The notes beneath the pieces were generated by a model. It searched no databases, was not told the origin of the DNA, and saw only the letters and a list, made by a program, of their open reading frames with translations. This document shows positions 36,030-36,780 of a DNA stretch of 64,000 nt, in pieces. The translations under genes and the position numbers were made by a program. Position 1 is the first letter of the stretch, and every line of letters begins with the position of its first letter. The DNA comes from Eledone cirrhosa (Eukaryota): NCBI GenBank assembly GCA_964016885.1, contig OZ024751.1:26598001-26662000 (forward strand), given 5' to 3'.

Positions 36030-36197
36030 CATACATGGTCTCACCCTTGCAAGCAGGGAAAAGCGGACGTAAAATGATGATGATGATGATGATGATATAT
36101 ACATATGTATGTAAAAGGTAAACAGAAATAACAACACAATCGGTACAGTATATGGAAGGGATATATTAGGTTAACGCTTGATATAGCAGGAAGAGGG

Positions 36198-36233
36198 TCT
36201 TAACGTTTCGGACGCTAGTCCTTCATCAGAAGA
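36198..36233 (-). ncRNA. Minimal type-I hammerhead ribozyme in a PLE 3' region
   Basis: TCTT-CTGATGA-A-GGAC(TAGC)GTCC-GAAAC-GTT-AAGA. Perfect stem I and stem II. Palindromic loop-less stem III (AACGTT). Lies ~310 bp 3' of the GIY-YIG stop on the same strand. Confidence 0.85.
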
Positions 36234-36332
36234 AAGAATGAGAAAAAAATAGATTGAGGGGACGGGCGGGATGGAATTGGAAAAAAATGTCTTTAGATAA
36301 GAATAACAGGTCCATTCATGTTGACATCTCTT

Positions 36333-36374
<42 letters not shown>

Positions 36375-36546
36375 ACAAACGCACGTGCTCAAGTATAGCT
36401 CTTTTTACAAAACGGTTTTTTCCCCATTTCAGGTAGACGCGCTCCATCATCCACTTTTCTAAAGAACAAGTATTAGTTATAAGAGAAGCTGCTAATGATC
36501 AAGAGAAAGCGGCAGGAATCTACAGGGTGTGATAATGGACGGGGTA

Positions 36547-36762
36547 TTAGAGAAATCGGGGATGTGAGTTAAGTCCAAGAGGGTATTAGGACCCAAGGCG
36601 GTGAATCAGACTTTGTTCAGTCCTTGTGCGCGAGGCCTGTGATCCATGATGTAAAAGGACACCCAGGACTGAAACATGTAGGGAAGAATGACCAGGAGAA
36701 CAGAAATGACGGGCGACAGGAGTATCTAAACCGAGTCGTATGTCCCTCAAATGTTCGTGTCT
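36547..36762 (-). pseudogene. Penelope-like element GIY-YIG endonuclease C-terminus (5'-truncated, one internal stop)
   Basis: Manual translation RHEHLRDIRLGLDTPVARHFCSPGHSSLHVSVLGVLLHHGSQASRTRTEQSLIHRLGS*YPLGLNSHPRFL*. It has the EH..PVARHF...H..R..E..I..L....P.GLN signature of PLE GIY-YIG domains. Not in the ORF track. Confidence 0.85.
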
Positions 36763-36780
36763 TTATTATTATATATATTG

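What the first reader, a model, noticed from the sequence alone, without database searches (positions are those of the whole stretch)
36165..36765. Direct link: PLE GIY-YIG C-terminus followed by an intact hammerhead and a conserved 3' terminus
Seen: a 72-codon frame absent from the ORF track (…EHLRDIRLGLDTPVARHF…EQSLIHRLGS*YPLGLN…), then ~310 bp downstream on the same strand a perfect 36-nt HHR and the tail ctatatcaagcgttaa. The HHR and tail recur without coding sequence at 27122-27271 and 38815-38885, and the tail alone at ~19714-19738. Inference: this identifies the parent of at least one ribozyme family as a GIY-YIG PLE (clade undetermined; microsatellite-associated Neptune-like is plausible), and the short cassettes are its 5'-truncated insertions.
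Basis: partly seen in the sequence, partly recalled or inferred. Interest (0 to 1): 0.75.

Follow-up and report, generated by a model that had tools for sequence, protein, structure and literature searches.

The report
Dead Penelope-like retrotransposon copy with hammerhead

Summary
Bases 36762-36547 encode the C-terminal half of a GIY-YIG endonuclease, with one internal stop. A hammerhead core lies 318 nt downstream at 36233-36198, followed by the 16-mer at 36186-36171.

Genomic copies show the parent is a Penelope-like element (PLE). It has an RT, a C-x4-C-xx-C linker (Neptune/Nematis-type), a C-terminal GIY-YIG domain and hammerhead-bearing pseudo-LTRs. In 12 of 13 loci found by protein alone, the same hammerhead module lies 181-496 nt downstream of the endonuclease.

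- The 16-mer is not the 3' terminus. The element runs to 36110 and abuts (TA)n.
- The hammerhead is the PLE "minimal" type: bulged A, 4-bp helices I and II, and a palindromic ACGU in place of helix III. It is therefore predicted to be active only as a dimer. No Rfam model matches it.
- The cassettes at 27, 38 and 19.7 kb belong to a separate, older, roughly 250-nt non-coding family with its own fixed 5' end. They are not truncations of this element.
- The window copy carries a private 136-nt inversion.

A second PLE family in the genome keeps the hammerhead core with compensatory helix changes. This is a new member of a known kind, and interest is low.

The parts
36110..36758 (-). Whole 5'-truncated, rearranged copy of PLE family A. 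It contains the end of the endonuclease ORF, the 3' UTR/pseudo-LTR and the hammerhead.
   Evidence: BLAST against a genomic copy (L033): window 36758-36467, 36469-36334 (inverted) and 36337-36095. In the 19 other loci fetched (L002-L020), the ORF-tail piece matches in all, at 93-94% identity.
36547..36762 (-). Frame encoding the C-terminal half of the GIY-YIG endonuclease (from ...EH onward). It has an internal TAA at 36588-36586 and the natural stop at 36549-36547. The GIY and YIG motifs themselves are missing because of the truncation.
   Evidence: Pfam on this fragment alone gives 0 hits.
36334..36469 (-). 136-nt 3'-UTR segment, including the (GT)n run. It is inverted relative to the family's usual orientation, with 182 nt and 29 nt missing at the two junctions.
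   Evidence: against L033. In one search this piece matched the opposite strand in all 18 of the 19 other loci where a unique, non-microsatellite match was found; L014 gave only microsatellite matches. The same pattern is seen.
36198..36233 (-). Minimal type-I hammerhead. Helix I 5' strand 36233-36230; core C3-A9 36229-36223; bulged A 36222; helix II GGAC/UAGC/GUCC 36221-36210; G12-A14 36209-36207; palindromic ACGU (15.1-16.1) 36206-36203; U17 36202. The predicted cleavage is between 36202 and 36201. Helix I 3' strand 36201-36198.
   Evidence: Sequence, pattern searches, comparison across families, and the description of PLE min-HHRs in Cervera & de la Pena 2014 (passages).
36161..36186 (-). 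This internal block is the best conserved, together with the hammerhead, between family A and family B.
   Evidence: Identity between the majority lines of A and B by block: hammerhead 30/32, this block 23/25, terminal part 39/52, far upstream 12/48.
36110..36160 (-). Terminal stretch up to the true 3' end ...ctgtttaccttttaca.
   Evidence: Alignments of 3' ends.
36763..36830 (.). (TA)n-rich flank at the truncated 5' end. The 3' flank (36109-36095) is also TA-rich and is followed by (ATC)n.
27069..27344 (-). Full-length copy of the non-coding family B. It has the head cctgaaaatggctaactaaacacac, a hammerhead at 27267-27236 with C15.2->A, a private insertion at about 27226-27150, and the 16-mer at 27146-27131. 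It ends ...ttacttttcgca followed by (TA)n.
38773..38943 (+). 5'-shortened, decayed family-B copy. The hammerhead core is at 38819-38850 with a broken helix II (GGAC/GCTC).
   Evidence: 79% identity to the B module, E 6e-39.
19673..19765 (-). Family-B 3' fragment beginning after the hammerhead. The 16-mer, with 1 mismatch, is at 19736-19721.
   Evidence: 72% identity, E 2e-7.

Best explanation
This is a dead, 5'-truncated and internally inverted copy of a very abundant Penelope-like retrotransposon (reverse transcriptase plus C-terminal GIY-YIG endonuclease). Its 3' repeat carries a PLE-type minimal hammerhead that is predicted to cut only when two copies pair, and that likely was not cut in the RNA that gave rise to this copy.

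Shown here:
- The full element starts at CAACGCTTACGTGG... and has about 250 nt of 5' UTR. One ORF follows, with an N-terminal domain, an RT with YIDD, a C-x4-C-xx-C linker, and a GIY-YIG domain with a CxxC inside it.
- The 3' UTR is about 0.7 kb and contains an internal (CA)n. The hammerhead lies about 90 nt (cleavage site to end) before the end ...CCTTTTACA, which is followed by (TA)n or (CA)n.
- Copies that reach the N-terminus usually have a partial upstream copy (pseudo-LTR) joined through (TA)n.
- Every copy keeps the roughly 90 nt downstream of the predicted cleavage site.

Inferred:
- The endonuclease nicks (TA)n-type DNA and the RT copies uncleaved RNA from near its 3' end by target-primed reverse transcription. 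Frequent 5' truncation would have produced the window copy.
- The hammerhead acts, if at all, in transcripts or RNA pairs that hold two motifs, likely with help from the element's protein.
- The roughly 250-nt family B (the cassettes at 27, 38 and 19.7 kb) would be a non-autonomous passenger that borrows this or a related PLE's enzymes through the shared hammerhead-plus-tail block.
For: Coding identity:
- The window peptide is 91% identical to the end of a 230-aa open copy.
- That copy and others carry the YIGQTGR...EH motifs, a CxxC inside the core, and the linker HPCS-x-SRCNTCPF.
- A 484-aa genomic ORF has 222 relatives at E<=1e-5. The best 120 are listed, many with precomputed RVT_1 and GIY-YIG domains.
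- The relative P0014 passes Pfam's GIY-YIG cut-off (25.0 bits against 22.6). Its RVT_1 score of 29.4 is just below the 29.6 cut-off.

Linkage and structure:
- 12 of 13 protein-found loci have the A-type hammerhead module on the same strand, 181-496 nt after the endonuclease. The 13th has a truncated endonuclease match.
- L033 has direct repeats of 365 nt at 93% identity flanking the ORF.
- 11 of 19 loci found through the N-terminus have a partial upstream copy abutting the 5' UTR, with variable starts. 9 of these include the hammerhead region.
- 5' truncation is supported by first-look candidate numbers: 2,196 for the N-terminus against 19,502 for the endonuclease. These are not copy numbers.

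3' ends:
- 82 of 93 module 3' ends (49 of 51 for A, 33 of 42 for B) have at least 4 units of TA or CA/TG in the next 24 nt. The background is 9.4% of random 24-nt windows in the same loci.

Hammerhead:
- A second PLE family (D; L102-L104) has the motif in both flanking repeats, reading CTGAAGA-A-GGGC-TTAT-GCCC-GAAACGTC.
- The changes fall at N7, at H17 (U->C), as an A-U to G-C change in helix II, and in the first two pairs of helix I. The invariant core, the bulged A and ACGU are kept.
- The covariation score is 0.452 against 0.221+-0.052 for shuffles (0 of 500 reach it), and 0.02-0.13 for slid partners.
- The architecture matches the published PLE min-HHR: helix I of 4-5 bp, an unpaired base at the 5' end of stem II, no or a small palindromic helix III, dimer action and weak activity in vitro (PMC4209133, passages).

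Mechanism from the literature:
- Frangieh et al. 2024 (PMC11167929, main text read) studied a Poseidon element. They found AT-rich cleavage, internal RT initiation about 85-92 nt downstream of the hammerhead cut site, a protein-assisted hammerhead, and uncut RNA as the template.
Against: - No Rfam hammerhead model matches.
- The double-hammerhead fold scores -11.3 kcal/mol against -23.9 for the predicted best dimer. The monomer prefers two other hairpins.
- Helix II is 4 bp, not the 7-8 bp typical of the Schistosoma min-HHRs.
- Pfam support on this genome's own decayed ORFs is below threshold: GIY-YIG E 0.016, RVT_1 E 0.024 and 6e-4, and none for the 484-aa ORF.
- The covariation rests on 7 sequences from 3-4 families. 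The structure was read from those same sequences, and the two family-C rows are out of register in helix II.
- Clade placement rests on one motif.
- No autonomous element with a family-B-type 3' end was found, so trans-mobilisation is inferred only from the shared block.
- Both the loci and the background windows come from a microsatellite-rich genome. The loci were chosen by similarity searches, not at random.
Confidence: 0.82

Rival explanations
1. The cassettes at 27, 38 and 19.7 kb are simply 5'-truncated insertions of the same element as the 36-kb copy.
For: - Family-B copies do show variable 5' ends, typical of truncation (L036, L037, L040, L041).
- The hammerhead and tail blocks are nearly identical between the families (30/32 and 23/25).
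- The hammerhead part of the 27-kb copy matches module A slightly better than module B (86.9% against 81.5%).
Against: - The terminal 52 columns differ (39/52) and the upstream part is unrelated (12/48).
- Of 39 family-B hits, 9 start at the same query position (144-150) and none starts earlier. At least 4 more carry the same head ggctgactgaacacac beyond the BLAST boundary.
- The B head shows no similarity to the family-A 3' UTR above shuffled controls.
- 0 of 9 and 0 of 29 B loci hold PLE coding sequence within 1.5 kb.
- B copies are more diverged (77-91% identity) than A copies (mostly 89-96%).
Confidence: 0.12
2. The hammerhead-like block is kept as a protein-binding, priming or promoter element of the PLE RNA or DNA and no longer works as a self-cleaving ribozyme.
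For: - All copies retain the roughly 90 nt downstream of the predicted cut, so the templates were uncut.
- Dispersed, non-tandem B copies keep the motif even though a monomer cannot form helix III. None of the 38 B loci shows a second same-strand copy.
- The hammerhead fold is not the predicted minimum-energy fold.
- In vitro, hammerhead mutants did not affect insertion by a Poseidon PLE (PMC11167929).
- Naiad PLEs thrive without canonical hammerheads (PMC8557442).
Against: Between PLE families A and D, change is confined to the positions a hammerhead tolerates (N7, H17 and paired helix positions, with compensation). Every invariant core base is kept. That is the signature of selection for the ribozyme fold itself. 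A protein-assisted hammerhead was shown to cleave in the Poseidon element.
Confidence: 0.25
3. The motif and peptide are chance matches in repeat-rich DNA.
For: The window is 10.4% (TA)n. Low-complexity DNA produced many spurious Rfam microRNA matches.
Against: - The expected number of chance matches is 0.00-0.02.
- There are thousands of first-look genomic candidates, listed matches have E-values down to 1e-120, and ORF and motif are consistently linked.
Confidence: 0.01

Closest known systems
Neptune-clade Penelope-like elements (canonical C-terminal EN+ PLEs)
   Same: [quoted passage not shown]
- An extra C-x(2-5)-C-xx-C linker before the endonuclease.
- Pseudo-LTRs formed by partial tandem copies, with a hammerhead in the pseudo-LTR.
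- An association with (TA)n.
- Frequent 5' truncation and adjacent inverted copies (for example L018).
   Different: - Clade membership was not tested by phylogeny. The linker is shared with Nematis.
- The optional 30-40-bp PLE 'tail' extension was not seen at the roughly 40 downstream 3' ends inspected.
- The closest database proteins are only about 45% identical.
PLE minimal hammerheads (Cervera & de la Pena 2014, PMC4209133)
   Same: - Type-I topology with a 4-bp helix I and an unpaired base at the 5' end of stem II.
- Helix III reduced to a small palindrome (ACGU), hence predicted dimer dependence.
- Location in the flanking repeats.
- Many more motifs in the genome than full elements.
   Different: - Helix II is only 4 bp here, against 6-8 bp in the Schistosoma and D. 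virilis examples quoted.
- Activity was not tested.
Poseidon element PAc of Anolis (Frangieh et al. 2024, PMC11167929)
   Same: - AT-rich target.
- The element's 3' end lies about 90 nt downstream of the hammerhead cut site: 92 nt here, against 85-92 nt to the RT start sites in PAc.
- Uncut RNA serves as the template.
   Different: - In PAc the hammerhead overlaps the ORF start. Here the pseudo-LTR ends about 250 nt before the ORF, with a (TA)n tract between.
- The clade is different.
- Nothing was tested biochemically here.
Non-LTR retrozymes and hammerhead-bearing SINE-like repeats of animals (Cervera & de la Pena 2020, PMC7229834; Li et al. 2026 preprint, abstract only)
   Same: Family B is a short, non-coding, abundant hammerhead-bearing repeat that coexists with PLEs and shares its 3' part with a PLE pseudo-LTR.
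   Different: - Family B is dispersed as single units. None of the 38 loci has a tandem copy.
- It carries a minimal hammerhead, not a canonical one, so circular-RNA formation by two flanking ribozymes is not expected.
- It has a head unrelated to the PLE, as in SINE/LINE pairs.

Membership tests
Penelope-like elements (EN+) | Reverse transcriptase domain upstream of the endonuclease in one ORF | tested here: met
   - Genomic copies carry SGVAMGTRMGPNYANLF...YIDD in the same frame series as the endonuclease.
- RVT_1 matches are weak on this genome's own ORFs (E 6e-4 to 0.024).
- Relatives at E 1e-100 or better carry RVT_1.
- This feature is not present in the window copy itself, which is truncated.
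Penelope-like elements (EN+) | C-terminal GIY-YIG endonuclease with two cysteines inside the core (CCHH) | tested here: met
   - VVYAL-x-CSLCGSLYIGQTGR...EH...HF is seen in L003, L033 and L034.
- P0014 passes Pfam GIY-YIG (25.0 bits against 22.6).
- The window peptide aligns with P0014 residues 735-805. The window holds only the part from EH onward.
Penelope-like elements (EN+) | Pseudo-LTRs from partial tandem copies | tested here: met
   - L033 has 365-nt direct repeats at 93% identity.
- 11 of 19 N-terminus-bearing loci have an abutting upstream partial copy.
- Family D has a hammerhead on both sides of the ORF in L103 and L104.
Penelope-like elements (EN+) | Optional 30-40-bp 'tail' extension at one end | tested here: not met
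   After the downstream 3' ends, only microsatellite and then unrelated DNA was seen. The start of the 5' UTR followed only where a whole element followed. The feature is optional, so this does not exclude membership.
Neptune clade | C-x(2-5)-C-xx-C zinc-finger-like linker before GIY-YIG (shared with Nematis) | tested here: met
   HPCS-x-SRCNTCPF is seen in L003, L033 and L034. The criterion is taken from Craig et al. 2021.
Neptune clade | Phylogenetic grouping of RT(+EN) with reference Neptune elements | not tested
   No reference PLE sequences were on hand. The named relatives are from corals, gastropods, echinoderms, sharks and a gar. This fits a widespread animal clade but does not place the element.
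Hammerhead ribozyme (type I, PLE minimal variant) | Conserved core C3 U4 G5 A6 N7 G8 A9 / G12 A13 A14 / A15.1-U16.1 / H17 | tested here: met
   All are present at 36229-36202. The core is kept in family D with N7=A and H17=C.
Hammerhead ribozyme (type I, PLE minimal variant) | Helices I and II supported by base pairing and covariation | tested here: met
   8 pairs were tested and 76.8% of cells pair. 5 pairs show changes on both sides. The covariation score is 0.452 against 0.221 for shuffles (0 of 500 reach it). The sample is small and the structure was derived from the same sequences.
Hammerhead ribozyme (type I, PLE minimal variant) | Match to a curated hammerhead covariance model | tested here: not met
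   No Rfam hit at gathering score or at E<=10. This is expected for motifs without a helix III hairpin.
Hammerhead ribozyme (type I, PLE minimal variant) | Site-specific self-cleavage | not testable with these tools
   No RNA holder was listed. Thermodynamic folding does not favour the active fold.
Non-LTR retrozymes | Short tandem arrays with a canonical type-I hammerhead in each unit | tested here: not met
   None of the 38 family-B loci shows a second same-strand unit within 1.5 kb. The motif is the minimal type.

The most novel reading that the evidence does not exclude
The roughly 105-nt hammerhead-plus-'tail' block is the cis-acting handle by which a (TA)n-targeting Neptune-like PLE recognises its template. 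A dispersed, roughly 250-nt SINE-like partner (family B, with an unrelated head and the same block) has hijacked it. The hammerhead fold would then be kept mainly as an RT-binding or priming structure in single, non-tandem units, rather than for cutting tandem transcripts.
Probability: 0.2. Interest if true: 0.5.

Novelty: new member of a known kind. Interest (0 to 1): 0.22.

Why it matters
It gives this genome a clear annotation. A very abundant Neptune-like PLE family and a related non-coding family account for at least 3 of the 10 hammerhead-core motifs in the window (10 found against 1 expected). They also account for an unannotated peptide frame and for part of the microsatellite-flanked repeat landscape.

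For the field it adds a PLE/short-partner pair that share only the hammerhead-plus-tail block. It also adds a second PLE family with compensatory hammerhead changes in the same genome. Both are useful material for the open question of what PLE hammerheads are for. It does not change what is already known about PLEs and their ribozymes.

Tried and rejected
- Rfam at gathering score over the window gave 0 hits. At E<=10 over 35500-39500 the 150 listed of 157 matches were microsatellite-driven microRNA, snoRNA or similar chance matches; 7 lower-scoring ones were not shown. At E<=10 over 36150-36300 there was one chance snoRNA match.
- Pfam on the 74-aa peptive alone gave nothing. Pfam on the 484-aa genomic ORF gave nothing. 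The local Pfam copy did not report the two newer families (PF26215, PF28514) that are precomputed for relatives, so I cannot say what they are.
- RNA evidence: no RNA holder was listed, and the five runs found are kept as contigs only. No reads were laid.
- Homology between the family-B head and the start of the family-A pseudo-LTR was considered and dropped. The local alignment scores lie within the shuffled range.
- The PLE 'tail' extension was looked for and not seen.
- Earlier findings of this scan: none for this genome.
- Thermodynamic cofolding did not recover the double hammerhead as the best fold.
- The first 3'-flank count was biased, because the query itself ended in TA-rich bases. 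It was replaced.
- The first module alignment held some family-B copies twice under both labels. The sets were de-duplicated. Only 8 B copies were long enough for the block comparison, against 46 A copies.
- Long-ORF copies fetched to look for upstream repeats (L075-L080, L034) were all 5'-truncated and so uninformative.
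Full report
**1. What is in the window**

The feature lies on the minus strand.
- The frame 36762->36547 reads RHEHLRDIRLGLDTPVARHFCSPGHSSLHVSVLGVLLHHGSQASRTRTEQSLIHRLGS*YPLGLNSHPRFL*.
- The hammerhead core lies 318 nt after its final stop. It reads ttcttCTGATGA-A-GGAC-TAGC-GTCC-GAAA-CGTT-AAGA, at 36233-36198.
- Both motifs are far above chance, with 0.00 and 0.02 matches expected.
- tblastn finds no other PLE coding fragment in the 64 kb.

**2. The parent element**

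The window lies in a 3.0-Gb genome. The 671-nt stretch has 2,984 first-look candidates there, and the listed matches are 93-94% identical over the ORF-tail piece. A 230-aa open copy of the endonuclease region (L003) has 19,502 first-look candidates. These figures are lower bounds for candidates, not copy numbers.

Genomic copies show one frame series with these parts:
- an N-terminal domain (...LLARGLRFIP...);
- RT motifs (SGVAMGTRMGPNYANLF, YIDD);
- the linker HPCS-x-SRCNTCPF;
- VVYAL-x-CSLCGSLYIGQTGR...EHLR...HF...PLGLN.

Pfam is weak on these decayed ORFs (GIY-YIG E 0.016, RVT_1 E 0.024 and 6e-4). A 484-aa copy, however, has 222 relatives at E<=1e-5. One of them, the 806-aa P0014 (45% identity, E 4e-125), passes Pfam's GIY-YIG cut-off at residues 708-751. 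P0014 aligns with the window peptide over residues 735-805 (44% identity, E 2e-16).

The window therefore holds only the C-terminal half of the endonuclease, from the EH motif onward. The GIY and YIG motifs are lost to 5' truncation at about 36758, next to (TA)n.

**3. Clade**

Craig et al. 2021 (passages) state two relevant points. [quoted passage not shown] Neptune and Nematis add a C-x(2-5)-C-xx-C linker, which has been proposed to mediate a (TA)n target bias. Both features are present in the genomic copies. I ran no tree, so 'Neptune-like' is a motif-based label.

**4. Linkage of ORF and hammerhead**

- In 13 loci found by protein alone (L022-L034), 12 have the A-type module on the same strand, 181-496 nt after the endonuclease match. 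The 13th (L028) has a truncated endonuclease match and no module.
- L033 has the module on both sides of the ORF (365 nt, 93% identity).
- Of 19 loci found through the N-terminal 200 aa, 11 have a partial upstream copy abutting the roughly 250-nt 5' UTR. Its starts vary (positions 65 to 375 of the reference). 9 include the hammerhead region and 7 hold the exact core.
- The junction reads ...CCTTTTACA-(TA)5-30-TCAACGCTTACGTGG....
- N-terminal candidates (2,196) against endonuclease candidates (19,502) fit heavy 5' truncation.

This is the standard PLE layout of pseudo-LTR, ORF, pseudo-LTR, with the hammerhead in the repeat (PMC4209133, PMC8557442).

**5. The true 3' end and the microsatellites**

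Alignments of many copies end at ...CTGTTTACCTTTTACA (family A) or ...CGTTTACTTTT(C/T)GCA (family B). That is about 60 nt beyond the 16-mer.

Of 93 module 3' ends (51 A, 42 B), 82 are followed within 24 nt by at least 4 units of TA (58 ends) or CA/TG (24 ends). The background is 9.4% of random 24-nt windows in the same loci. The window copy has TA-rich DNA at both ends.

Either the element targets such repeats, as reported for Neptune and Naiad, or it ends in them. The short (TA)n between the upstream repeat and the 5' UTR is compatible with both.

**6. The hammerhead**

All invariant core positions are present. The other features are:
- a 4-bp helix I (UCUU/AAGA);
- a 4-bp helix II (GGAC/GUCC) preceded by an unpaired A;
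- no helix III hairpin. A15.1-C-G-U16.1 is a palindrome that can only pair with a second copy.

This matches the min-HHR described for PLEs, apart from the shorter helix II noted above. That description gives a helix I of 4-5 bp, an unpaired base at the 5' end of stem II, no or a small palindromic helix III, dimer action and low activity in vitro (PMC4209133, passages). No Rfam model recognises it. The double-hammerhead pairing is possible (-11.3 kcal/mol) but is not the predicted best fold (-23.9).

The strongest support comes from comparison. A second PLE family in this genome (D; L102-L104, about 46% identical to P0014) has CTGAAGA-A-GGGC-TTAT-GCCC-GAAACGTC in both flanking repeats. The differences fall at these positions:
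- N7;
- H17;
- one helix II pair (A-U to G-C);
- the first two helix I pairs (U-A to C-G and U-A to A-U).

A third motif family (C) has GGGU/ACCC. The pair count gives a covariation score of 0.452, against 0.221+-0.052 for shuffles (0 of 500 reach it) and 0.02-0.13 for slid partners. There are caveats. The alignment holds seven sequences from three or four families, the structure was read from those same sequences, and the family-C rows are out of register by one column in helix II.

**7. How it most likely works**

Shown: the anatomy above, and the fact that every copy contains the roughly 90 nt 3' of the predicted cut. The copied RNAs were therefore uncut at that hammerhead.

Inferred, from the families named and from Frangieh et al. 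2024 (main text read):
- The endonuclease nicks AT-rich or (TA)n DNA.
- The RT starts near the RNA's 3' end. In the Anolis element the start is 85-92 nt past the hammerhead cut site; here the end lies 92 nt past it.
- Copying often stops early, which gives copies like the one in the window.
- The hammerhead would act only where two motifs meet, either as two pseudo-LTRs in one transcript or as two RNAs, and likely with protein help.

Its role in the life cycle is unsettled in the literature.

**8. The other cassettes**

The copies at 27, 38 and 19.7 kb match a separate family B.
- B copies are 77-91% identical to the reference copy. A copies are mostly 89-96% identical.
- The full B unit is about 250 nt. 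It starts with (cc)aaaatggctgactgaacacac, continues through an A/T-rich stretch into the hammerhead, and ends ...ctactatatcaagc(g/a)ttaaactaatatat...gtttacttttcgca.
- Of 39 hits to a long B copy, 9 start at query position 144-150 and none starts earlier. At least 4 more carry the same head beyond the BLAST boundary. Others are truncated at varied points.
- No PLE coding sequence lies within 1.5 kb in 0 of 9 and 0 of 29 loci.
- No locus has a tandem second unit.

Identity between the A and B majority lines, by block (only 8 B copies were long enough):

| Block | Identity |
|---|---|
| Hammerhead | 30/32 |
| 16-mer block | 23/25 |
| Terminal part | 39/52 |
| 30 nt upstream of the hammerhead | 21/30 |
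| Further upstream | 12/48 |

The B head is not detectably related to the A 3' UTR. Family B therefore looks like a SINE-like passenger that shares the PLE's 3' module. It does not look like truncated copies of the 36-kb element's family. That it is moved by the PLE is inferred.

The 27-kb copy has a private 77-nt insertion between the hammerhead and the 16-mer, and its helix III carries C->A.

**9. The window copy is rearranged**

Relative to L033, the segment 36334-36469 is inverted, and 182 nt and 29 nt are missing at its borders. Of the 19 other loci fetched, all 18 with a unique match to this segment have it on the opposite strand; L014 gave only microsatellite matches. This explains why the hammerhead is about 318 nt from the stop here but about 545 nt away in L033.

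**10. Comparison with what is known, and verdict**

Hammerheads in PLE repeats are described in PMC4209133. Thousands of orphan min-HHRs with only a few lying in full elements are also described there. The possible PLE origin or mobilisation of short hammerhead repeats is discussed in PMC7229834 (passages) and in a 2026 preprint on vertebrates (abstract only).

The finding is therefore a correct recognition of a known architecture in a genome where it is very abundant. It is a new member of a known kind. What is mildly new is the A/B pair sharing only the hammerhead-plus-tail block, and the (TA)n-ended structure. I did not open any supplements, and I did not identify the species.

Noticed in passing
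window 6184-6212(-), 6337-6365(+), 51764-51800(+), 28472-28506(-), 48316-48352(-): There are more hammerhead-core matches (CTGANGA...GAAA): 10 in the window against 1.01 expected. The first two are identical and face each other, about 125 nt apart (CTGAAGAGGTCACAGAGTGTGTGACGAAA). The one at 51764 is related. L005 carries a similar motif. These are probably other hammerhead-bearing repeat families. The last two may be chance matches.
   Followed up: no
window 36987-37028(-) and 58841-58881(-); also L013 816-780, L025 2918-2880, L037 3' flank, L101 5653: Another repeat family has CTGATGA, a long helix-II-like hairpin, and GAAA followed directly by tatatataat. Its helix III would therefore be a (UA)n palindrome. 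It often lies within a few hundred bases of family A or B copies, next to (TA)n.
   Followed up: partly
L102, L103, L104 (G000 C3:75.5 Mb, C1:105.09 Mb, C157): A second, diverged PLE family (D) has a covarying hammerhead in both flanking repeats, 4.3-4.5 kb apart.
   Followed up: partly
L020 647-669(+), L034 4968-4992(+): A third minimal hammerhead type reads CTGATGA-A-GGGT...ACCC-(A)GAAA(A)CATTAG. Its parent element is unknown.
   Followed up: no
L033 (reverse strand positions 2328-2810): A segment of about 480 nt lies between the upstream pseudo-LTR and the 5' UTR. It is absent from the 11 other copies that show this junction, so it is likely a secondary insertion.
   Followed up: no
L018 2095-2337(+) and 2742-2583(-); L042 1685-1859(+) and 1664-1506(-); L039 B(+) 1345-1590 with A(-) 2158-1916: Pairs of copies lie in opposite orientation: tail-to-tail in L018 and L039, head-to-head in L042. 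Such inverted arrangements are described for PLE insertions (Craig et al. 2021).
   Followed up: no
window-wide; 35500-39500: 10.4% of the window is (TA)n of 4 or more units. These runs and the (CA)n runs give dozens of spurious sub-threshold Rfam microRNA matches (mir-297, mir-466, mir-3149 and others).
   Followed up: yes
family B copies (L036-L074): The commonest changes in the hammerhead of old copies are at CpG sites (GCGTCC to GTGTCC or GCATCC; AACGTT to AACATT or AATGTT). This suggests CpG methylation decay in this genome.
   Followed up: no
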